A stretch of 32,000 nucleotides of DNA. Source: Wolbachia endosymbiont of Litomosoides sigmodontis. Lineage in GTDB: Bacteria > Pseudomonadota > Alphaproteobacteria > Rickettsiales > Anaplasmataceae. Of the stretch, positions 3,820 through 27,396 are shown piece by piece; within the stretch, counting starts at the first letter, position 1; each line of letters starts with the position of its first letter. The notes under the pieces are model-generated. The model made no database searches. It was not told the DNA's origin and saw only the letters and a program-made list of their open reading frames with translations. Made by a program: the position numbers and the translations under genes. The stretch spans positions 360,001-392,000 of the forward strand of contig NZ_CP046577.1 of the NCBI RefSeq assembly GCF_013365435.1, read 5' to 3'.

Positions 3820-5202
3820 ATGAGCTTAATTAAGCCTGAGGTTTCTGCTATGTTTTTCGATCAAATTGTTACAGTAACGGATCATAATATTGCTTGGGAA
3901 AAAATCCAAAATCTTCTTTATAACTTTTATGGAGAAGCAACATATAACAGCTGGTTAAGTTCACTTAAATTTGTTAGTAGTAGTAATGGAGAAGTTTTGT
4001 TATCTGCACCAACGAAATTCATAAAAGAGTGGATTATAGTTCACTACATGAAAAAGATATTATTATTATGGCAAAATGAAGATAAAAATATATGTTCTAT
4101 TGATATTCAAGTAACCGAAGAAAAGAATTCAAGCCCTGGCATCATATTAAAAAGCAAGGAGGAAAGTATTAATAATCTTGGTTCACCACTAGATCCGAGA
4201 TTTACTTTTGATAATTTCGTGGTAGGAAAGCCAAATGAATTAGCATTTACGGCTGCAAGGCGTGTGGCAGAGTCCATAGATCCGATATCAGGGAGTAATC
4301 CTCTGTTTTTGTATGGCGGAGTTGGACTCGGTAAAACACACTTAATGCATGCTATAGCTTGGCACATAGTTAATTCTCCATCAGCAAAAAGAAAGGTAGT
4401 ATATTTGTCGGCAGAGAAGTTCATGTATCAATATATTACAGCACTACGGAGCAAAGACATTATGTTATTTAAAGAGCAGTTTAGATCGGTAGATGTATTG
4501 ATGGTAGATGATGTACAATTTATCAGTGGTAAAGATAGCACACAAGAAGAATTCTTTCACACTTTTAATGCATTGATAGATCAAAACAAACAATTGGTTA
4601 TATCAGCTGATAGGTCTCCTAGTGATCTTGATGGAGTAGAAGAAAGAATAAAGTCACGGCTAGGCTGGGGGTTGGTGGCAGACATTAATGAAACGACTTT
4701 CGAATTAAGACTTGGTATACTGCAAGCCAAAGTGGAGCAAATGAATATTTATGTTTCACAGGATGTCCTAGAGTTTTTGGCAAAGAATATAAAATCTAAC
4801 ATAAGAGAATTAGAAGGCGCATTAAACAAAGTTGCCCATACTTCATTGATTGGAAGGAGTGTGACAGTGGAATCAGCTAGTGAAACTCTGATAGACCTTC
4901 TTAGGTCAAATCATAGATCAATTACAATAGCAGAAATACAAAAGAAGATAGCTGAATTTTTTAATATAAAGGTTACAGATATGCATTCTAATAGAAGGCT
5001 CCGCGGTCTTGTAAGACCAAGGCAAATAGCTATGTATTTTGCTAAGAAATTTACACACAAAAGCCTGCCAGACATTGGAAGAAGCTTTGGTGGCAGAGAT
5101 CATGCTACTGTTATACATGCAGTGAAACAAATAGAAAACTTTATAAAAACTGATTCAGAATTTGCTGATGAAATCAATCAGTTAAGGAAAATGTTTAAGT
5201 AG
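3820..5202 (+). CDS. dnaA: chromosomal replication initiator protein DnaA
   Basis: 460 aa. Walker [11 protein letters not shown], Walker [11 protein letters not shown], and C-terminal DNA-binding helix-turn-helix [36 protein letters not shown]. Confidence 0.97.
4100..4160 (+). repeat. Possible shortened third copy of the in-frame mini-repeat, within the variable domain II linker of DnaA
   Basis: attcaagta...gaattcaagccctggcatcatattaaaaagc resembles ccmF atccaagta...cggtcaagctctggtataataccaaagaac. In the same frame the peptide [20 protein letters not shown] resembles VIQVAD...SSSGIIPK (ccmF) and VIQVADTE (metG). Confidence 0.35.
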
Positions 5203-11953: not shown

Positions 11954-14200
11954 ATGAGTCATAGTGGTAACCATCTACGTAATATTTTGATAGGTGGTGT
12001 TGTGGCTTTTAGTATACTAGAGTTTTGTTTCTATTTGTCTGGTATACTATTTTATCTATTTGTTGATGGTCCAGATGGTGTGAACTTTAAGGCAATCAAC
12101 CCTAGCTTGACGCCTTTCCCTCAAGCTCTTTGGCCAACAATTTTTGATCATATACAAAATTGTTGGCATCATCCATGGTTATATAATTTAGAGCTTAAGA
12201 TAAAATTAATTATATCTTTTGCATTACCTGTTGTTGTTTTAATGATTATTTTATGGAATTTAAGAGAAAGAATAATTGAGTGGCGGCCATTTAGAAAAAA
12301 AGAATCGCTCCACGGAGATTCGAAATGGGCATCAGAGAAAGAGATACGAAAGGCAGGCTTAAGAAGCAAAAAGGGACTATTGCTTGGTAAGGATAAAAGA
12401 GGTTACTTCATTGCTGATGGATATCAACATGCATTGCTATTTGCACCTACAGGTTCTGGTAAAGGTGTTGGTTTTGTGATTCCCAATTTGTTATTTTGGA
12501 CTGACTCAGTAATTGTACACGATATAAAATTGGAAAATTATGAAATAACAAGTGGCTGGCGGGAGCGACAAGGGCAAAAAGTGTATGTATGGAATCCAGC
12601 ACAGCCAGATGGAATAAGCCACTGCTATAATCCATTAGAATGGATTAGTGAAAAACCTGGTCAAATGGTTGACGATGTGCAAAAAATAGCTAACTTAATT
12701 ATGCCTGAACAAGACTTTTGGCAGAACGAAGCAAGAAGCTTGTTTGTTGGAGTAGTATTATATCTACTTGCTGCGTCAGAAAAAGTTAAATCTTTTGGTG
12801 AAGTTGTGCGTACGATGCGTAGTGATGATGTAGTTTACAATCTTGCTGTTGTTTTGGACACAATGGGCAAAATAATACATCCTGTAGCATATATGAACAT
12901 CGCTGCTTTTTTGCAAAAGGCTGACAAAGAAAGGTCGGGCGTTGTTTCAACCATGAACTCATCTCTTGAGTTGTGGGCAAATCCATTAATTGATACTGCA
13001 ACTGCATCAAGTGACTTTAATATTCTAGATTTTAAGAGGAAAAAAGTTACAGTTTATGTTGGTTTAACTCCAGATAACTTAAACAGGTTAAGGCCTTTAA
13101 TGCAAGTTTTTTACCAGCAAGCAACTGAATTTTTATGTAGAAAATTGCCGTCGGATGATGAGCCTTATGGTGTGTTGTTTTTGATGGATGAATTTCCAAC
13201 ACTTGGAAAAATGGAACAATTTCAAACTGGTATTGCATATTTTCGTGGCTATAGAGTTAGATTATTCCTAATTGTTCAAGATACTGAGCAACTGAAAGGA
13301 ATATACGAAGAAGCGGGAATGAACTCCTTTTTGTCAAACTCAACTTATAGAATAACTTTTGCAGCTAATAACATTGAGACAGCTAACTTGATATCGCAAC
13401 TTATAGGGAACAAAACTGTACAACAAGAATCGTTGAACAGACCTAAATTTTTAGACTTAAATCCTGCATCAAGATCGTTGCATATCTCTGAAACGCAGAG
13501 AGCATTGCTGTTACCTCAAGAAATTATTATGTTACCACGTGATGAACAGATAATTTTGATAGAGTCGACTTATCCAATTAAATCAAAGAAAATCTTATAT
13601 TATAGTGATAGCGCCTTCATAAAAAAGCTACTTAAGAAGACTCATGTGCCTACACAGGAGCCATATGATCCAAACAAAGTTTTTTCTGATATTAGTAAAG
13701 GTAAGATCAATAACGAAGAAAACAACCCTATTGAAGGGCCTAATACTGCTAATTATCCTATTGAGGCTCAAACTAAAAATGCGGTATACGATGAATCAGA
13801 GCTCGATAATGAGCTTAAAGAGGAAGAGATCGATGATGAAGATGTTGACGATAAATTTAATAAAGGAGGTGATAACAGATTTGATGATGAAGATGATGTC
13901 AAATTTAAAGACGATGATGAATATAAAGAGGAAAAATATGATGATGTATTCGATGATGAAGATGACAAATTTGAAGAAGATGATGGGCTTAAAGAAGAAA
14001 AATATGATGATGTATTCGATGATGAAGATGACAAATTTGAAGAAGATGATGGGCTTAAAGAAGAAAAATATGATGATGTATTCGATGATGAAGATGACAA
14101 ATTTGAAGAAGATGATGGGCTTAAAGAAGAAAAATATGATGATGTATTCGATGATGAATTTGAAGATGATAACGATAAGCCAAAAAGTAATGGGAAGTAA
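11954..14200 (+). CDS. virD4: type IV secretion coupling protein VirD4 (rvhD4) with an unusually long acidic, repeat-containing C-terminal tail
   Basis: 748 aa. Two N-terminal TM helices, Walker A APTGSGKGVGFVIPN, Walker B-like LFLMDEFPTLG. The TraG/VirD4 core ends near aa ~555. The remaining ~190 aa are D/E/K-rich with tandem repeats. Confidence 0.93.
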   Translation: MSHSGNHLRNILIGGVVAFSILEFCFYLSGILFYLFVDGPDGVNFKAINPSLTPFPQALWPTIFDHIQNCWHHPWLYNLELKIKLIISFALPVVVLMIILWNLRERIIEWRPFRKKESLHGDSKWASEKEIRKAGLRSKKGLLLGKDKRGYFIADGYQHALLFAPTGSGKGVGFVIPNLLFWTDSVIVHDIKLENYEITSGWRERQGQKVYVWNPAQPDGISHCYNPLEWISEKPGQMVDDVQKIANLIMPEQDFWQNEARSLFVGVVLYLLAASEKVKSFGEVVRTMRSDDVVYNLAVVLDTMGKIIHPVAYMNIAAFLQKADKERSGVVSTMNSSLELWANPLIDTATASSDFNILDFKRKKVTVYVGLTPDNLNRLRPLMQVFYQQATEFLCRKLPSDDEPYGVLFLMDEFPTLGKMEQFQTGIAYFRGYRVRLFLIVQDTEQLKGIYEEAGMNSFLSNSTYRITFAANNIETANLISQLIGNKTVQQESLNRPKFLDLNPASRSLHISETQRALLLPQEIIMLPRDEQIILIESTYPIKSKKILYYSDSAFIKKLLKKTHVPTQEPYDPNKVFSDISKGKINNEENNPIEGPNTANYPIEAQTKNAVYDESELDNELKEEEIDDEDVDDKFNKGGDNRFDDEDDVKFKDDDEYKEEKYDDVFDDEDDKFEEDDGLKEEKYDDVFDDEDDKFEEDDGLKEEKYDDVFDDEDDKFEEDDGLKEEKYDDVFDDEFEDDNDKPKSNGK
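13931..14173 (+). repeat. 66-bp tandem repeat: three perfect units plus a truncated fourth, encoding EKYDDVFDDEDDKFEEDDGLKE inside the virD4 3' end
   Basis: Units 13931-13996, 13997-14062 and 14063-14128 are identical base for base. 14129-14173 is a partial unit with a 9-nt deletion. 13865-13930 is a diverged older unit. Confidence 0.95.
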
Positions 14201-14230: not shown

Positions 14231-14760
14231 CCAATTTCTACTGTAAAAAAACTAAATGTTGTAATGGGTGGCAAAAGGGCATAGTATAACAGCCGTAGCA
14301 CAAAAATATGTTGTATTTAAAGAGTTATACACTAGCTGTATGGATAAAGCATCTAAAATTTGGAAGGGAAGAGAATTTGTTTATCTACATTCGCAATGTT
14401 ATTGAAAATTAGATTGAATCTAGATCGATTTGCAATATGAATGCAAGAAAATCATAATATTACCATTAAAGAAATGAGAATAGAATCTAGGAGAAACTGA
14501 GCTTAAATGTCAACAAGTCTAAGGAACTACCTTATTTTTATCTCTACAGTGCAGTTAATTTTAGAAATGAAGAGAATTCTAGCTTATTGAGCGACTTTGA
14601 TTCTATATAAAATAGAACATTTTACATAATAAAGTCTATAATACAATTGTTTTGCTTGAGATTGCTTTGTGCAAATTTATTATCTTTCTTTTTCACTCCG
14701 TAATTAAGCATCTCTACAATGTTATTTGTTTGACTATTAATAATGAGAATTGGTGCAACC
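14231..14760 (+). mobile_element. Decayed IS630/Tc1-like insertion sequence, copy R2, internally deleted (boundaries approximate)
   Basis: Starts with the family terminus ccaatttctactgta. The rest aligns with R3 and R4, for example gtataacagccgtagcacaaaaatat and cataataaagtctataatacaattg...cttgag. No intact ORF. Confidence 0.7.
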
Positions 14761-15700: not shown

Positions 15701-15895
15701 CTAATGTTTTTTGTATTGCCTCACCCTATGTCACATTTCCTTTTACTCTGTGATATCAATGCTTTACACTGGCATTCATATTTCTTTTTTTTTAGATTTT
15801 AGTGTTTAGCTACGTATTCGTTTAGTTGAGCGGTGTGATGAATGATAAATAGGAGATTGTGGAAGAATTTTGTCTCCTTTTATTTCTATGTTGAT

Positions 15896-16806
15896 ACTAA
15901 TTTCTACTGTATAAGGAACAGATATATAGTAATGGAAAAGAAGACATGCTGAAGTAGTAAAATAATAAGGTTTAAATGGCTTTAAAGGCGAAATTTTTGG
16001 ATAAAAAAGTCGTAGAATTAGTGAAAGAAATGCTAAAGAAAGTGCTAAATGATCCATATATGGATAAAGCACTAAAATTTGAAAGAGAAGAAAAATTATT
16101 TACTTTTCCTGACACCGTAGAAAAACTAGATTAAATTAGAGTTGATTTGAATAATTAAAATATGGATATAAAAAAACACTAATATTACCATTGAAAAAAT
16201 AAGAATAAGAATTAGGAAAAATTTGTTTTAGATGTCAGTCTACAGTATACTTAATGTGCAAAAAGTGAAGTTTTTATATATTATGTCAAGACTAATTCAT
16301 AATGAATAAGGTAAGGGTAAGCAGAAAGAGTTAAAAAGAACTTAATGAGACTTGGTAAATATCCCGAATGAGAGTTATTTATCTTTGATGTATTGTAATT
16401 TAGTACACATTCGAAAATTGGACGCGGGTAGTTTAAAAAAGGCGTTAGAACATAGATTAAAGTAAAATTAGGTAGAAAAATTTTTGTTTCTATAGTGTAG
16501 TTAATTCTAGAAATGAAGCTTTTCTTATTGTGGATTGTGCTAGTTGTAATAAGTCGAAAAATTTAAAAGTAAAAGTACATAAAAATATTGAGGTTATATA
16601 CCTACCATCATACTTACCTAAGCTCAATTATATTAAGGGACTTTGCTTGTAATAAAATAGAAAATTTTACATAATAAAGTCTATAATACAATTGCTTTTC
16701 TTGAGAGTGCTTTGTACAAATTTGTTACCCTTTTTCTTACTCCATTATTAAATAACTCTGCAATATCACTTATTTGACCTACTAACAATGATAATTGGTA
16801 TTAATA
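15896..16806 (+). mobile_element. Decayed IS630/Tc1-like insertion sequence, copy R3; left terminal repeat present, right terminus lost (boundaries approximate)
   Basis: TA followed by ctaatttctactgtataaggaacagatatatagtaatggaaaagaag. The broken frame still reads ...YLPKLNYIKG..., resembling the YSPELNPIE motif of IS630-family transposases. Collinear with R1, R2 and R4. Confidence 0.72.
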
Positions 16807-17230: not shown

Positions 17231-19231
17231 ATGCCTGAGTTTGGGAATATATTACTACTATTATCCTGCTTATTATCCTTAACGTATCTATTTCTGCCAC
17301 TTAATTCTTACCTATTTATTACTACTGCCATATTCTTCTGTGTATCAGCGTCAATGGCTATTTTGATTTACTGCCACATTACAAATGATTTCTCACTCGA
17401 AAACGCATATTACCACTCTCATACGACAAAACCTTTGATCTATAAAATCTGTGGCGTTTGGGGAAATAAAGAAGGGTCCATGTTGCTTTGGACTTTAGTG
17501 CTTACTTTTTACCTATTTCTGATGAATATTTTTATTGGTGATAGTAGTGAATTGAAGAAGGTATCCTTAATCACTCAAGGCTTGATCTGCTTTTGTTTTT
17601 TGCTATTTACTTCACTTAAGTCCAATCCTTTTACTAAAATGCCAAGCATGGAAATAGATGGCCTTGGTTTTAATCCAATATTGCAGGATATAGGTCTTGC
17701 CATTCACCCACCAATATTATATTTGGGGTACCTTGGATTTAGTGTTCCCTTTTCGCTCTCTATGGCCGGGTTAATTATAAACATCGAAGGAAATATTTGG
17801 GCTAGAATTATTAGACCTTGGGTACTTATTTCTTGGTCACTGCTTACCTTAGGCATTAGTCTTGGCAGTTGGTGGGCATACCGCGAATTTGGTTGGGGTG
17901 GATTTTGGTTTTGGGATCCAGTAGAAAACGTTTCTTTAATGCCATGGTTAATTGCAGTAGCGTTGACACATCTGTTACTTGTGGTACGAAATTTCAATGT
18001 TTTAAGGAATTTTGCTATTTTACTTACGCTCACAACTTTTATATTGAGTGTAACTGGAACATTTTTAGTCCGTTCTGGAATACTCGTTTCAGTTCACACG
18101 TTTGCAAATGATCCAGAATATGGACTGTATATACTAGGTTTACTTGGCGTCATTACAGCCAGTAGCTTAGCAATATTTATAGCATTTACGAAAAAGGGTG
18201 GATCTCTTATGTTGCCACCCGTCATCCAAGTAGCTGATATTGGGATCAAGGGAAGGAATGTACGGTCAAGCTCTGGTATAATACCAAAGAACACACCAAG
18301 GCAAAACTTTCCTATTTTCTCCCGCTTTACGATGGTACTGATGAATAATTTGTTATTGATTACTGCCTTTTTCATCGTGTTTGTTGGCACTTTATATCCT
18401 ATAATGCTTAAATATTTAACTGGTGAACTCATTTCAGTTGGAGCACCATATTACAATTCTTTATTTAACCCTATTGCACTGGCTATTCTAGTGCTCACTA
18501 TGATAGGGCAATACTGCCGTTGGCAGGGAAATAATCTGTTGCCAATATTCCATGAGTATAGAATCTCATTCTGTAGTGCTGCAGCGAGCTTACCATTTAT
18601 CTTTCATATGGATCTAATAATTGTACTATCAATTACCATCTCCATGGCACTATTAGTCTTTGTTTTGGAAGCGTACGGCAAAAGAATCCACTTGTTTGAA
18701 GTGGAAATTGGTAAATCAATTTCATTAGCAAGAAGAATTTCCAAGTCTTACTATGCTATGATGTTAGCTCATGCTGGAATAGCAATTCTAGTACTTGGTA
18801 TAGCCTATTCAATTGGTTGGCAAGAAAAAAAAGAAGATTACCTTAGAATAGGGGATAGCATAACAGTCAATAAATTCAAAGTTACTTTACGAAATACTGA
18901 ATTTATAAGAAAGAAGAATTTTCATGCAGTGAGATGCATAATGGATATTAGAAATATGTTGAACAACAAGATACTAGGTGAAGTAACTCCTGAATATAGA
19001 TTTTATCTTGTGGAGGGTCAGAAAAATATTGAAAGCAGTATTTACCACAATTTATTTTCTGATATTTATGTTGTAATTGGAGAGATTGATAAAAATAAGA
19101 GCAGAATCGCCACTAAAGTACATTATAAGCCTGGAATGCCTATAATTTGGGTTGGGTCTTTTCTCATTGCTTTTGGTTCACTTTTTGCTGCTTTGCCCTT
19201 ATTGAGAAGATCTTGTACCAATTTGCACTGA
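17231..19231 (+). CDS. ccmF: cytochrome c-type biogenesis heme lyase CcmF
   Basis: 666 aa polytopic membrane protein. WWD/heme-handling motif WGGFWFWDPVEN and conserved His-containing loops. Contains an in-frame insert at 18205-18305. The last 4 codons and stop lie inside IS copy R4. Confidence 0.93.
   Translation: MPEFGNILLLLSCLLSLTYLFLPLNSYLFITTAIFFCVSASMAILIYCHITNDFSLENAYYHSHTTKPLIYKICGVWGNKEGSMLLWTLVLTFYLFLMNIFIGDSSELKKVSLITQGLICFCFLLFTSLKSNPFTKMPSMEIDGLGFNPILQDIGLAIHPPILYLGYLGFSVPFSLSMAGLIINIEGNIWARIIRPWVLISWSLLTLGISLGSWWAYREFGWGGFWFWDPVENVSLMPWLIAVALTHLLLVVRNFNVLRNFAILLTLTTFILSVTGTFLVRSGILVSVHTFANDPEYGLYILGLLGVITASSLAIFIAFTKKGGSLMLPPVIQVADIGIKGRNVRSSSGIIPKNTPRQNFPIFSRFTMVLMNNLLLITAFFIVFVGTLYPIMLKYLTGELISVGAPYYNSLFNPIALAILVLTMIGQYCRWQGNNLLPIFHEYRISFCSAAASLPFIFHMDLIIVLSITISMALLVFVLEAYGKRIHLFEVEIGKSISLARRISKSYYAMMLAHAGIAILVLGIAYSIGWQEKKEDYLRIGDSITVNKFKVTLRNTEFIRKKNFHAVRCIMDIRNMLNNKILGEVTPEYRFYLVEGQKNIESSIYHNLFSDIYVVIGEIDKNKSRIATKVHYKPGMPIIWVGSFLIAFGSLFAALPLLRRSCTNLH
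18205..18305 (+). repeat. In-frame ~100-nt mini-repeat element, copy in ccmF
   Basis: gtcatccaagtagctgatattgggatcaagggaagg...tcaagctctggtataataccaaag aligns with metG 31845-31925. Encodes LMLPPVIQVADIGIKGRNVRSSSGIIPKNTPRQ between a TM helix and the conserved FSRFTMVLMNNLLL segment. Locally GC-richer than the flanks. Confidence 0.6.
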
Positions 19232-19980
19232 ATAAGAAACGGATAGACAATAATGGAAAAAGTGATTTCAATGGTATTGAAATCAAAATTATTGGGTAAA
19301 AGATTGTGGAATCAGCAAAAGAAACGCTGAAGAAAGTACAAAATGATGCATACGTATAAAAAAATTAAATGCTGTAATTGTAGCAAAAAGTATAGTATAA
19401 CAGCTTTAGCAAAAATATATTGCATTTCAAGAACAGCATTTACTGCATGGATAAAGTACCTAAAATTTGAAAGAGAAGAAAAATTATTTGTCTTCAAACA
19501 TCGTAGAAAAACTAAATTGAATTGTGGTAAATTTAAGCAAGTTGAAGTATGAATACAAGAAAACCTTGGAAAATTTGCCTTGAATGTTAGCAAGTTTACA
19601 GTATACTGTAATATGTAAAAAATGAGATTTTTGTATATTACGCCAAGATTGATTCACAATGAGTAAGATAAATGTAGGTAGGGAAGAGTTTAAAAAAACT
19701 TAATGATATTATTGGTAAGTGTCATAGACAAGATTGTTCATCTTTGATGAATCTCGCTTGACATACATTCGAAAGTTGAGCACGGGTATTTTTAAAAGGG
19801 CGTTGGAATACAGGTAAAAGTAAAATTGGGCAGACAAAATTTTTATTTCTACAGTGCACTACAGTTGCTTTACTTAAGAACGTGTTTTGGCAAATTTATT
19901 ACTTTCTCTTTCTTACTTCGCGATTAAACGACTCTGCAATGCTACTTATTTGACTAATTAGCAATGGGGGATTGATATCA
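19217..19980 (+). mobile_element. Decayed IS630/Tc1-like insertion sequence, copy R4, internally deleted (boundaries approximate)
   Basis: TA followed by ccaatttgcactgaataagaaacggatagacaataatgg. The residual frame KKYSITALAKIYCISRTAFTAWIKYLKFEREEK looks like the N-terminal helix-turn-helix of IS630-family transposases. The tail aligns with the R2 and R3 3' parts. Confidence 0.72.
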
Positions 19981-20114: not shown

Positions 20115-21017
20115 ATGGCAGTTAGGTTCACTCCAAGTAATTTCAATATTAAGTTCAGTAAGTATAGAAAATTGACTACATTAATTAGTGTTATTCTTGT
20201 CATTTTTTCGCTTTTTATTGTTGTGTTACGTGGAGTAAATTTAGGCATAGACTTTACAGGTGGAATTTTGATGGAAATAAAATCTTCAAGTGAAGATCAT
20301 ACTATTTTAAATATATTAAAAGAAAGTGGTTTTACGGTGCAGAGTTTAAAAGCTGGTAGTAATTTAGTCATGCGTTTTAAAGAAGAAGGAAATGAGAATA
20401 AAATTAAAAAGATCAAAGATATACTAAAAGAAAAGCTGGGTGACTCAATAAACTATCGTAAAACAGACTACGTTGGCCCACAAATAAGTTCAACGCAGAT
20501 ACTTGAAGGGATTTTGTCTATATTTATTGCAGTTATTGGAATATTTTTTTACGTTTGGTTTAGGTTTAATTGGCAATGTGGATTTGGTGGAACAATAGCA
20601 CTGATTCATGACGTGATTTTAACTGTTGGTTTTATCAGCCTGACTGATATTGAATTTAATATTTCATTAGTTGCAGCTCTCCTTACTGTGATTGGTTATT
20701 CAATCAATAATTCAGTAGTTATATATGATCGGATTCGAGAATGTCAAAAAAGTGATAAAAATAGGCAGATGAGTGATATAGTAGATGCGAGTATTAATGC
20801 TACATTATTTCGCACTGTTTTAACTTCAGGTACAACTCTTCTTGCTGCTATCCCTTTGATATTAATTTGTACAGATGCGGTCAGAGATTTTAGTTTGATT
20901 GTCTTTTTTGGTGTTTTAATTGGCACTTGTTCTGCAATGTTTATCTCTGCTCCTATATTAACTTGTAGAGTCTTAACAAGACTAATTCCCACTGTACAAG
21001 AGACAGATAGACAATAA
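20115..21017 (+). CDS. secF: protein-export membrane protein SecF; the last ~12 codons are supplied by IS copy R5
   Basis: 300 aa. GIDFTGG motif and six-TM SecF topology, with [19 protein letters not shown] typical of SecD/F. No adjacent secD. Confidence 0.9.
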
Positions 21018-21675
21018 TGAAAAAGAAGCCGTGCTGAAATAATACTAATTCTCAAGCAAAGCAATTGTATTACAGACTTTATTACGCAAAATGTTCTATT
21101 TTATATATAGAATCAAAGTCGCTTAATACACTAGAACTCTCTCTATTTCTAGGGTTAACTGCACTGTAAAAATAAAAATTTTGTCTGCCTAATTTTACTA
21201 ACCTTTGTTTTAACGTCTTTTCTAAAAAATATGGTCCAACTTTTAAATGTGTGTCAATTTTGCATATTGCAGTGTACTATAGACTTGCTGACATTTAAGC
21301 TAAGTTTTTCTTGGGTTCTTATTCTCATTTCTTTTATGGTAATATTAATTTTTTATATCCATGCTTCAACTTGTTAAACCTGATTCAATCTAATTTTTCT
21401 GCGACGTTGAAGGTAAACAATTTTACTTCTCTTCTAAATTCTAGGTGCTTTATTTATGTAGTCAATGCTATTTTAAAAATGCAACATATTTTTGTTACAG
21501 CTGTTATACTATGCTTTTTGCTGCAGTTACAGCATTTAGTTTTTTTGCACATATGCATATTTTGCACTTTCTTCAGCATTTCTTTTAATGATTTCACAAC
21601 TTTTTTATCTAATGATTTTGATGTCAATGTCATTTAAACCTTGCTATTTTACCATACTTCAGTGTAGCTCTCCCC
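20981..21675 (-). mobile_element. Decayed IS630/Tc1-like insertion sequence, copy R5, internally deleted and truncated at the far end (boundaries approximate)
   Basis: Begins actaattcccactgtacaagagacagatagacaataatgaaaaagaagccgtgctgaa (terminal repeat), then continues as the reverse complement of the R2/R3 3' parts (ctcaagcaaagcaattgtattacagactttatta...). Confidence 0.72.
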
Positions 21676-26529: not shown

Positions 26530-27035
26530 GTAACATTTAAGATAGAACTCTCTCCATTTCTAAGATTAACTGCACACTATAGAAATAGAAATTTTGTCTA
26601 CTTCTAAATGTGTGTAAACTGTGATTCATTAAAGGAAAATAACTCTAATAGTCTCATTAAAATTTTTTAAAACTCTTTCTGTTTACCTTTTCATTGTAAA
26701 TTAGTCTTGGTATAGTATAAGGAAACTTCATTTTTTGCATATTACGTTGTACTGTAAATTTTCTGACATTTAAGCTAAAAATTTCCCTTAGATTCTTATT
26801 TTCATTTCTTCAATGGTAATATTAAGGTTTCTTGTATCAATACTTCAACTTGTTCAAATTGACTCTGATTTAATCTGGTTTTTCTATGATGTTGATGAGG
26901 AATAATAATTTTTCTTTATTTTCTAAATTTTAGGTGCTTTATCTATATAGTCAATGTTATTCTTAAAATGCAGCATATTTTTGTTACAGCTATTATACTA
27001 TTATTATCTATCCGTTTCTTATTCGGTAGGAATAA
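26530..27035 (-). mobile_element. Decayed IS630/Tc1-like insertion sequence, copy R6, 5'-truncated fragment (boundaries approximate)
   Basis: gaactctctccatttctaagattaactgcaca... aligns with R1 and R5. It ends ttattatctatccgtttcttattcggtagg, the reverse complement of the R4 terminus gaataagaaacggatagacaataa. Confidence 0.7.
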
Positions 27036-27396
27036 GTATTAGAATCTGTACATGATTTTATAGATTACGTTAACAAGTAGCGGAATGATGTTTTTTACTT
27101 AGTTGTAAATTTTAAAGAAATTTACTTAATAAAAAGGTAAGCGCTATAGTAATTTGCTGACACTTAGTTTAAGCGTGATTTAGTTAAACATAAAAGAATT
27201 TAAAAGGCATGCAGCCACCATAATTTGGTGTAATTTGCTAAAAAATTTCTTGGTAACAAAGTTGTTGAAATTTGTCGAGTTAGTTTTTTTTCATTTTTAT
27301 GAAATGCTTGAATGACTGATAACAGTCAAAAAGTCTATTATTTTATGCTTGCATAGAAAGCAACAAAAATGACAAATAATCTAAAAATATAGCAAT

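What the first reader, a model, noticed from the sequence alone, without database searches (positions are those of the whole stretch)
18205..18305. In-frame ~100-nt repeat element interrupting CcmF (one member of a protein-coding mini-repeat family)
About 33 extra residues (LMLPPVIQVADIGIKGRNVRSSSGIIPKNTPRQ) sit in CcmF. They lie between a TM helix (...AIFIAFTKKGGS) and the conserved FSRFTMVLMNNLLL segment, which in other CcmF proteins follows the helix after a short loop. The DNA is visibly GC-richer than the flanks. It aligns at roughly two-thirds identity by eye with an insert in the unrelated gene metG (31831-31940). Both are read in the same frame and start with an identical VIQVAD hexapeptide. 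Homologous, frame-preserving inserts in two unrelated essential genes are the signature of the selfish protein-coding repeats described in Rickettsia (RPEs) and later in Wolbachia. I cannot tell whether this element belongs to a described family or is new.
Basis: partly seen in the sequence, partly recalled or inferred. Interest (0 to 1): 0.7.

Follow-up and report, generated by a model that had tools for sequence, protein, structure and literature searches.

The report
Decayed Wolbachia palindromic element in CcmF
The extra 31 amino acids in the CcmF protein of this nematode Wolbachia are the worn-out remnant of a known selfish DNA repeat, the Wolbachia palindromic element, which entered the gene before the genus diversified; this is an ordinary case of a known phenomenon.

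Summary
The window comes from the Wolbachia endosymbiont of Litomosoides sigmodontis (wLs, supergroup D). CcmF carries about 31 extra residues (nt 18206-18298) that are absent from Neoehrlichia, Anaplasma, other alphaproteobacteria and the Thermus CcmF structure. MetRS carries a related insert of about 30 residues (nt 31834-31923).

The ccmF-versus-metG DNA similarity is not above background on its own. However, a profile of 152 terminal inverted repeats taken from other Wolbachia genomes picks exactly these two sites as its top hits in the window (E 1.4e-7 and 0.013).

The family is already described: the Wolbachia palindromic element (WPE; Ogata et al. 2005; NCBIfam TIGR02697). Here both copies are the short form, with two 31-nt inverted repeats and a short spacer.

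Both wLs copies are decayed:
- They no longer fold as hairpins.
- They miss the TIGR02697 and Rfam cut-offs.
- The ccmF insert evolves two to four times faster at non-synonymous sites than the rest of the gene.

The CcmF insert occurs in all 119 of 120 Wolbachia CcmF clusters that could be scored, but it is read in two different frames. The metG insert is shared by supergroups D and A and absent from B, C, E, F and J.

Side result: canonical WPE copies match the Rfam family WsnRNA46. Verdict: a real feature, a new member of a known kind, of low interest.

The parts
17231..19231 (+). ccmF (heme lyase CcmF/NrfE family subunit), 666 aa, host gene of the insert
   Evidence: ORF list and translation. 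100% identical to the wLs protein. NCBIfam TIGR00353 E 1e-146.
18206..18298 (+). The insert in ccmF relative to non-Wolbachia CcmF: 31 codons (L326-P356) in the loop after the helix that follows the conserved SVHTF histidine. The loop is inferred to be cytoplasmic.
   Evidence: 31-column gap in Neoehrlichia, Anaplasma and other outgroups. About 31 extra residues against 6zmq_A. The cytoplasmic location is inferred from the known periplasmic position of the WWD domain and of the conserved histidine that follows it; it was not tested.
18220..18250 (+). Left terminal inverted repeat of the WPE relic (CGTCATCCAAGTAGCTGATATTGGGATCAAG), read as VIQVADIGIK
   Evidence: nhmmer with an HMM of 152 WPE ends from other Wolbachia: E 1.4e-7, 26.5 bits; the best of 30 shuffled windows scores 7.7. 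Three mismatches to a real copy, L002 18917-18946.
18251..18261 (+). Short spacer between the two ends. The internal region of about 48-90 nt found in long-form WPEs is absent.
   Evidence: Comparison with canonical copies.
18262..18285 (+). Decayed remnant of the right inverted repeat (ACGGTCAAGCTCTGGTATAATACC), read as RSSSGII
   Evidence: 18 of 24 identical to the consensus AGTGTCAAGCACTGGGATGACACC by hand count; 4 mismatches in the 18-nt core. Not significant alone (E 9.3; no hit). Supported by orthology: the wLbra copy is closer to consensus, and the P0004 copy reads WIPASRAGMT and scores 12.9 bits against TIGR02697.
31078..32000 (+). metG (methionine--tRNA ligase), N-terminal 307 codons; the gene runs off the end of the window
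   Evidence: Translation. NCBIfam NF008900 E 5e-119.
31834..31923 (+). The insert in metG relative to empty-site orthologues: about 30 codons (ESQSVIQVADTEVKKEIKISTSRAGMTSNL)
   Evidence: Protein and DNA alignments with filled and empty sites. About 34 extra residues against MetRS 4dlp_A.
31845..31875 (+). Left terminal inverted repeat of the metG WPE relic (TGTTATTCAAGTGGCCGACACTGAGGTCAAG)
   Evidence: nhmmer with the TIR HMM: E 0.013, 10.7 bits, above all 30 shuffles. E 0.016 with the independent 4-copy HMM.
31885..31914 (+). Right terminal inverted repeat of the metG relic (AAGATTTCAACATCGCGCGCTGGGATGACA), read as STSRAGMT
   Evidence: nhmmer minus-strand hit at 31916-31904, E 0.14, 7.5 bits. 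The orthologous supergroup A copy is near-canonical, CAGATTCCAGTGTCAAGCACTGGAATGAC.

Best explanation
[quoted passage not shown] WPE is a non-autonomous, MITE-like repeat. It has two 31-nt terminal inverted repeats (consensus TGTCATCCCAGTGCTTGACACTGGGATCCAG) that stay open in four of six reading frames.

Inferred history: a copy inserted into a tolerant loop-coding part of ccmF before the radiation of the sampled Wolbachia supergroups, and another inserted into metG in an ancestor shared with (or exchanged with) supergroup A. Because the insert kept the frame and lay in a surface or cytoplasmic loop, the host protein still worked and the insert was fixed.

Since then the insert has drifted under weak constraint. 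In wLs the hairpin is lost, so the copies can no longer act as a mobile element or as a hairpin RNA. They now serve only as extra loop residues.

Shown: homology to WPE ends, absence from outgroups, loss of hairpin potential, faster non-synonymous change, and different reading frames in different strains. Inferred: the timing, the neutrality, and the cytoplasmic location.
For: Family homology:
- A 4-copy WPE HMM and a 152-copy TIR HMM, both built without wLs sequence, rank the two sites first and second in the window. E values are 0.0018 and 0.016, and 1.4e-7 and 0.013.
- The metG right end is hit in inverted orientation.
- The variant end CCAAGTAGCTGAC, which encodes VIQVAD, makes up about one fifth of the ends in other Wolbachia.

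The short form is real elsewhere:
- L008 3340-3405 and L040 7749-7814 fold as near-perfect hairpins, z -7.6 and -13.5.
- In-frame copies encode VIQVADTGIQMQIPASRVGMT and similar peptides.
- An intact short-form peptide scores 30.9 bits against TIGR02697, above its 27.55 cut-off.

Insertion status:
- Outgroup CcmF proteins lack the segment.
- All 119 scorable Wolbachia CcmF clusters have a 19-46 aa loop at the site, against about 12-13 aa in outgroups.
- metG shows filled and empty sites.

Decay:
- The wLs copies fold no better than shuffles, z -0.22 and -0.82.
- Insert dN/dS is 0.34-0.70 against 0.16-0.18 for the rest of ccmF.
- The same DNA is read as VIxVxD in 18 clusters and as SFQC in 93 clusters, with compensating indels.
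- TIR density is low in the filarial loci: 2-4 weak hits per 12-32 kb, against 11-14 per 22 kb in the two arthropod strains.
Against: - The wLs peptides do not hit TIGR02697 even at E 10.
- The wLs DNA does not reach the Rfam WsnRNA46 score: 14.2 bits for metG and no hit for ccmF.
- The right end in ccmF is not significant by itself.
- The direct ccmF/metG similarity is not above background.
- Each insert is about 20 nt longer than the end-to-end element, and that extra flank is unexplained.
- The dN/dS estimates rest on only 4.5-6.5 synonymous and 8.5-12 non-synonymous differences.
- The full wLs genome could not be scanned, because it is not in genome contigs. The copy number in this genome is therefore unknown.
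- The defining paper (Ogata et al. 2005) is not held in the library.
Confidence: 0.87

Rival explanations
1. Exaptation. The insert began as a WPE but is now kept by selection because the longer loop, or its RNA, does something for CcmF, MetRS or the symbiosis. Possible roles are an interaction surface or an embedded regulatory RNA of the WsnRNA46 kind.
For: The ccmF site is occupied in all 119 scorable Wolbachia CcmF clusters, and the reading frame is always restored. Insert dN/dS stays below 1, at 0.34-0.70. Canonical copies of the same repeat match Rfam WsnRNA46, a family reported as a functional sRNA (PMC12796755).
Against: The peptide differs completely between strains because the frame differs, VIQVADIGIK against SFQCLTLESR. 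The extra length beyond outgroups varies from about 7 to 34 residues, including a nearly deleted form in P0043. The wLs copies have lost the hairpin and miss WsnRNA46. metG orthologues without the insert are common. With so few substitutions, the dN/dS values may not differ from neutrality.
Confidence: 0.08
2. No mobile element. Both segments are ordinary lineage-specific loop expansions, and the shared VIQVAD and the DNA similarity are coincidence or compositional convergence.
For: The pairwise local alignment score of 25 is matched or beaten by unrelated window tiles scoring 26-29. The protein-domain and RNA models give no significant hit.
Against: External HMMs pick exactly these two sites out of 64 kb of search space. 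Orthologous copies carry near-canonical WPE ends. The metG site has left and right ends in inverted orientation. Intact copies elsewhere encode the same peptide.
Confidence: 0.03
3. An active or recently active element. The copies belong to a WPE subfamily that is still transposing or spreading by gene conversion in wLs, and the shared VIQVAD variant reflects a recent common source.
For: The two copies share three derived substitutions relative to the main consensus: CCA to CAA, CTT to GCY, and CAG to AAG.
Against: The VIQVAD end variant is old and widespread, about one fifth of ends in other supergroups. The ccmF copy is orthologous across supergroup D, and the insert itself is present across the genus. 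The two wLs copies differ at 7 of 30 core positions. Neither folds as a hairpin. No intact copy occurs in 32 kb of wLs, or in 34 kb of wLbra and wWb.
Confidence: 0.02

Closest known systems
Wolbachia palindromic element (WPE; Ogata, Suhre & Claverie 2005, Trends Microbiol 13:253; NCBIfam TIGR02697 WPE_wolbac)
   Same: The terminal inverted-repeat sequence, including the GTCAT/ATGAC ends that PMC3767692 notes as frequent in WPEs. Restriction to Wolbachia. In-frame insertion into housekeeping genes. Comparable WPE-like in-frame inserts are reported in addA, addB and priA (PMC4224334).
   Different: The wLs copies are the short form, with a spacer of about 10 nt in place of the 48-90 nt internal region. 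They lie in the opposite orientation to the frame modelled by TIGR02697. They are too decayed to reach the TIGR02697 cut-off or to fold as a hairpin.
Rickettsia palindromic elements (RPE-1 to RPE-7 and later families; Ogata et al. 2000, 2002)
   Same: They work alike: selfish palindromic repeats that insert in frame into surface loops of essential proteins and are then tolerated.
   Different: No sequence relationship was detected: no RPE model appears in the NCBIfam scans. The host genus differs. [quoted passage not shown]
Rfam RF02625 WsnRNA46 (Wolbachia sRNA 46)
   Same: Canonical WPE copies score 68-110 bits against a gathering score of 65.3, including a copy inside ccmF of another strain. 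The Rfam family and WPE therefore describe the same DNA repeat.
   Different: The wLs relics do not match: 14.2 bits with E 4.4 for metG, and nothing for ccmF. No hairpin RNA is expected from them.
Bacterial MITEs and palindromic repeats (for example Correia, ERIC and REP elements; coding palindromes of Methanocaldococcus jannaschii)
   Same: A short non-autonomous element with terminal inverted repeats and variable internal sequence. Wolbachia is reported to have the highest MITE density among prokaryotes (PMC11602168).
   Different: Most MITEs are intergenic. Here 38% of the sampled ends lie in stop-free stretches of at least 150 codons. No partner transposase or target-site duplication was identified.

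Membership tests
WPE (Wolbachia palindromic element) | Sequence homology to the element's terminal inverted repeats | tested here: met
   An HMM of 152 WPE ends from other Wolbachia gives E 1.4e-7 for the ccmF left end, E 0.013 for the metG left end and E 0.14 for the metG right end in inverted orientation. An independent 4-copy HMM gives E 0.0018 and 0.016. The ccmF right end is not significant alone.
WPE (Wolbachia palindromic element) | Palindromic (hairpin-forming) structure of the copy | tested here: not met
   The wLs copies give z -0.22 and -0.82 against shuffles, whereas canonical copies give z -7.6 to -13.6. I read this as decay of a former member, since less decayed orthologues keep the ends.
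WPE (Wolbachia palindromic element) | Multi-copy repeat restricted to Wolbachia | tested here: met
Almost all were Wolbachia or Rickettsiales MAGs. The copy number in wLs itself could not be measured, because that genome is not in the collection.
WPE (Wolbachia palindromic element) | In-frame insertion in a protein-coding gene, absent from orthologues of related genera | tested here: met
   CcmF. MetRS.
WPE (Wolbachia palindromic element) | Protein-domain model TIGR02697 WPE_wolbac at or above 27.55 bits | tested here: not met
   No hit at E up to 10 for the wLs CcmF, the wLs MetRS or their insert peptides. There is a graded series: a canonical copy scores 70.1 bits, intact short forms 30.9 and 20 bits, and the orthologous P0004 ccmF copy 12.9 bits. 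The model covers the opposite orientation and the long form.
WPE (Wolbachia palindromic element) | Match to the consensus and gene list published by Ogata et al. 2005 | not testable with these tools
   The paper is not held. Secondary sources were used instead (PMC4224334, PMC3767692, PMC3733652).
Rfam RF02625 WsnRNA46 | Covariance-model score at or above 65.3 bits | tested here: not met
   No window hit at the gathering score. The metG element scores 14.2 bits with E 4.4, and ccmF gives nothing. Canonical WPEs score 68-110 bits.
RPE (Rickettsia palindromic elements) | Sequence match to an RPE domain family | tested here: not met
   No RPE model appears among the NCBIfam hits at E up to 10. 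The resemblance is one of mechanism only.

The most novel reading that the evidence does not exclude
The relic may not be mere junk. An insert has occupied the same CcmF loop in every sampled Wolbachia lineage and has been re-framed repeatedly, with frame A in 18 clusters and frame B in 93. This could mean selection for an extended loop in the heme lyase of a symbiont whose heme metabolism matters to its hosts. Separately, the metG insert is shared with identical flanks by supergroups D and A only. That would imply either repeated precise in-frame excision or recombination between supergroups.
Probability: 0.12. Interest if true: 0.45.

Novelty: new member of a known kind. Interest (0 to 1): 0.25.

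Why it matters
This mainly matters for annotation and alignment.
- The odd loops in wLs CcmF and MetRS are relics of a known selfish repeat. They should be masked in phylogenetic or selection analyses, as was done for WPE-like regions in addA, addB and priA (PMC4224334).
- The case shows how long such inserts can persist: genus-wide in CcmF. They can also be re-read in another frame without loss of the host gene.
- The side result has some practical value. The NCBIfam WPE protein domain and the Rfam WsnRNA46 sRNA family hit the same repeat, so reported WsnRNA-46-like small RNAs may arise from many repeat copies, including copies inside coding genes.

Tried and rejected
- **Pairwise test.** ccmF against metG with shuffles and window tiles was not significant on its own, so I moved to external profiles.
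- **Repeat search within the window.** Neither repeat finder nor a search for the canonical palindrome with up to 3 mismatches found the pair or any further copy. My first degenerate pattern was mistyped and found nothing.
- **Folding the broad regions as RNA.** No significant structure: z -1.27 and -0.68 on the + strand.
- **First genome-contig scan.** A VIQVAD-specific 30-nt pattern found nothing. This shows only that the wLs genome is not in that collection.
- **Possible third copy at 15749-15778.** It matched 22 of 30 positions and gave E 0.26 with the 4-copy HMM. It was not reproduced with the 152-copy HMM, so I dropped it.
- **AlphaFold2 model of CcmF.** Built from the 20-sequence alignment, it was unusable (mean pLDDT 35). 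I ran no fold search. The loop position was taken from sequence alignment to 6zmq_A and from known CcmF topology.
- **Target-site duplication at metG.** GAATC / GAATC in P0121 and GAACC / GAACC in supergroup A are suggestive but too short to call.
- **Third homologue search.** I ran no further search on the insert peptides. E-values for a 30-residue query against 5.8 billion proteins would be uninformative, and the result would not change the verdict.
Full report
**Source and observation.** The window comes from the Wolbachia endosymbiont of Litomosoides sigmodontis (wLs, supergroup D). The ORF at 17231-19231 translates to a CcmF that is 100% identical to the NCBI protein of that organism, on a 1,045,802-bp contig.

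It is extra sequence by three independent comparisons.
- Against the solved Thermus thermophilus CcmF (6zmq_A), query residues 314-369 correspond to chain residues 342-366, so wLs has about 31 more.
- In a search of 1.84 billion representative proteins, nearly every non-Wolbachia CcmF splits into two aligned stretches, the first ending at query residue about 316-322.
- In an alignment with Candidatus Neoehrlichia (P0242), the Anaplasma platys cluster (P0250), a Rickettsiales MAG and 17 further representatives, all outgroups have a 31-column gap at this point.

This places the insert at residues 326-356, nt 18206-18298. GC content is only mildly raised, 0.45 against 0.33-0.40 in the flanks, and a similar peak occurs elsewhere in the gene.

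**The metG copy.** metG starts at 31078 and runs off the end of the window. Its segment ESQSVIQVADTEVKKEIKISTSRAGMTSNL is absent from MetRS of Wolbachia supergroups B, C, E, F and J and from all non-Wolbachia homologues. It is present in a close relative (P0121, 89% identical) and partly present in supergroup A. In the Brucella MetRS structure 4dlp_A the flanking motifs are only two residues apart. The insert is best placed at 31834-31923.

**Is the similarity between the two inserts real?** Taken alone, it is not convincing. A strict local alignment finds a 38-nt core with a score of 25. Only 2 of 2000 shuffles reach that score, but unrelated tiles of the same window score 26-29. A degenerate 30-nt pattern derived from the two copies matches only those copies, which is circular. 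I therefore looked for external evidence.

**Identifying the family.**
- Aligning 20 Wolbachia CcmF proteins showed that all of them carry an insert at this site, with two unrelated peptide types: VIQVAD/VIPVLGTGIQ or SFQCLTLESR.
- DNA from wAlbB, wOo and a 697-residue variant (P0009) showed that both types are the same DNA read in different frames. Its core is GTCATCCCAGTGCTTG[A/G]CACTGGGATCCAG.
- The repeat starts in codon phase 0 in wLs and P0009 and in phase 2 in wAlbB and wOo. A 7-nt indel upstream and a compensating length change downstream restore the frame.
- P0009 carries a second, longer insert near its N-terminus. That insert scores 70 bits against NCBIfam TIGR02697, "WPE palindromic element domain".
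- The reverse complement of that insert begins GTCATTCCAGTGCTTGACACTGGAATCCAG and ends GTCAAGCACTGGGATGAC. These are the two motifs seen, in decayed form, at the two ends of both wLs inserts.

WPE is the protein-coding palindromic repeat of Wolbachia described by Ogata, Suhre and Claverie in 2005. That paper is not held in the library. [quoted passage not shown] One source attributes the original discovery to the Brugia malayi Wolbachia, a close relative of wLs (PMC3733652).

**Statistical support for membership.**
- An nhmmer profile of four canonical WPE copies from two arthropod strains ranked 18221-18250 (E 0.0018) and 31845-31873 (E 0.016) as the top two hits in the window.
Nearly all were Wolbachia or Rickettsiales MAGs.
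- From these, 152 distinct ends defined a 31-nt terminal inverted repeat, TGTCATCCCAGTGCTTGACACTGGGATCCAG. About one fifth carry the variant CCAAGTAGCTGAC, which encodes VIQVAD.
- An HMM of these ends gave E 1.4e-7 (26.5 bits) for the ccmF left end, E 0.013 (10.7 bits) for the metG left end and E 0.14 (7.5 bits) for the metG right end on the opposite strand. The best score in 30 shuffled windows was 7.7.
- The ccmF right end is not significant by itself. By orthology it corresponds to WIPASRAGMT in strain P0004, which scores 12.9 bits against TIGR02697, and the wLbra copy is closer to consensus.

**Short form.** Canonical copies have 48-90 nt between the two ends. Short copies with a spacer of only 14-20 nt also exist, at L008 3340-3405 and L040 7749-7814. 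In-frame short copies inside long ORFs of other Wolbachia encode VIQVADTGIQMQIPASRVGMT, VIQVADTGIQTQIPASRAGMT and VIPVLDTGIQEKEEWIPVSATRMT. These are the undecayed counterparts of the wLs metG and ccmF peptides. One of them passes the TIGR02697 cut-off at 30.9 bits. Across the sample, 57 of 149 ends lie in stop-free stretches of at least 150 codons, against 75% of random positions.

**State of the wLs copies.** They are relics.
- Folded as DNA, canonical copies give z-scores of -7.6 to -13.6. The wLs copies give -0.22 and -0.82.
- Their peptides do not hit TIGR02697 even at E 10.
- Among wLs, wLbra and wWb, dN/dS of the insert is 0.34-0.70, against 0.16-0.18 for the rest of ccmF. The insert values rest on few substitutions.
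- TIR-like hits are sparse and weak in the filarial loci, 2-4 per 12-32 kb. In the two arthropod strains there are 11-14 per 22 kb, scoring up to 44 bits.

**History.** 119 of the 120 Wolbachia CcmF clusters could be scored. All 119 have a loop of 19-46 residues here, against about 12-13 in outgroups. Frame A (VIxVxD) occurs in 18 clusters, frame B (SFQC) in 93, and 8 have other or partly deleted forms. The ccmF insertion therefore predates the divergence of the sampled supergroups. The metG insert has the same flanks in supergroups D and A, where only the right end survives in near-canonical form. It is absent from the other supergroups. That pattern implies either several in-frame losses or exchange by recombination; I did not resolve which.

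**Mechanism.** Established knowledge places the WWD domain and the conserved histidine that follows it (SVHTF here) in the periplasm. The ccmF insert lies one helix after that histidine, so it should sit in a cytoplasmic loop. This is inference: the AlphaFold2 model was unusable (pLDDT 35). The most likely account is a selfish repeat that inserted in frame into a tolerant loop, was fixed, and has since drifted. Different strains read it in different frames, which argues against a conserved peptide function.

**Side result.** Canonical WPE copies match Rfam RF02625 (WsnRNA46) above its gathering score, at 68-110 bits. One of these is the copy inside ccmF of P0009, which also hits TIGR02697. The wLs relics do not match: 14.2 bits with E 4.4 for metG and nothing for ccmF.

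**Verdict.** The family is the known WPE. The wLs copies are old, decayed short-form members. Interest is low.

Noticed in passing
L001 16825-16966; L002 15811-15952; L002 10297-10433; L040 7731-7834; L091 6268-6445; L103 7153-7294; L041 7289-7477: Canonical WPE copies match Rfam RF02625 WsnRNA46 (Wolbachia sRNA 46) above its gathering score. One of them lies inside ccmF and also hits the NCBIfam WPE protein domain TIGR02697. The sRNA family and the protein-coding palindrome are therefore the same multi-copy repeat. I found no paper in the library that states this link.
   Followed up: partly
window 18220-18298 and the orthologous ccmF sites in L001, L002, L003, L123, L124: Different Wolbachia read the ccmF element in two different frames. 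Frame A gives VIxVxD in 18 clusters and frame B gives SFQC in 93 of 120 clusters. A 7-nt indel upstream and a compensating change downstream restore the frame. A supergroup E protein switches frame inside the element.
   Followed up: partly
window 31834-31923; L127, L128 (filled sites); L125, L126 (empty sites): The metG insert has the same flanks in supergroups D and A and is absent from B, C, E, F and J. This implies repeated in-frame loss or recombination between supergroups. A possible 5-nt direct repeat flanks the insert (GAATC or GAACC) but is too short to judge.
   Followed up: partly
L002 10301-10438 (P0009, residues 105-140); also P0074, P0076, P0085, P0094: Some arthropod Wolbachia carry a second, long-form WPE in the N-terminal part of CcmF. 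In P0076 it appears with a short tandem SVIPV duplication. wLs lacks this insert.
   Followed up: no
window 13879-14158: There is a 66-nt tandem repeat of 4.2 copies with 94% matches. It encodes an acidic 22-residue unit at the 3' end of the T4SS coupling-protein gene virD4 (11954-14200). wLs VirD4 is 748 aa, against 698 aa in wLbra and 676 aa in wWb.
   Followed up: no
window about 2077-2700, 14240-14750, 15900-16800, 19210-19860, 20980-21650, 26540-27040: Dispersed intergenic repeat blocks of 50-160 nt pieces (75-95% identity) occur in both orientations and flank ccmF on both sides. ORFs inside them (2455-2808 and 21311-21637) have no Pfam hit. They are unrelated to WPE.
   Followed up: no
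window 15749-15778: GTGATATCAATGCTTTACACTGGCATTCAT matches the WPE end at 22 of 30 positions. It gave E 0.26 with the 4-copy HMM but no hit with the 152-copy HMM. It is probably chance, or a very decayed intergenic copy.
   Followed up: yes
Genome-contig collection: A pattern that matches both window copies exactly found nothing in the collection. The wLs genome is therefore not among the species representatives, and its WPE copy number could not be measured.
   Followed up: yes
window 3820-5202: dnaA lies in the window, next to one of the dispersed repeat blocks.
   Followed up: no
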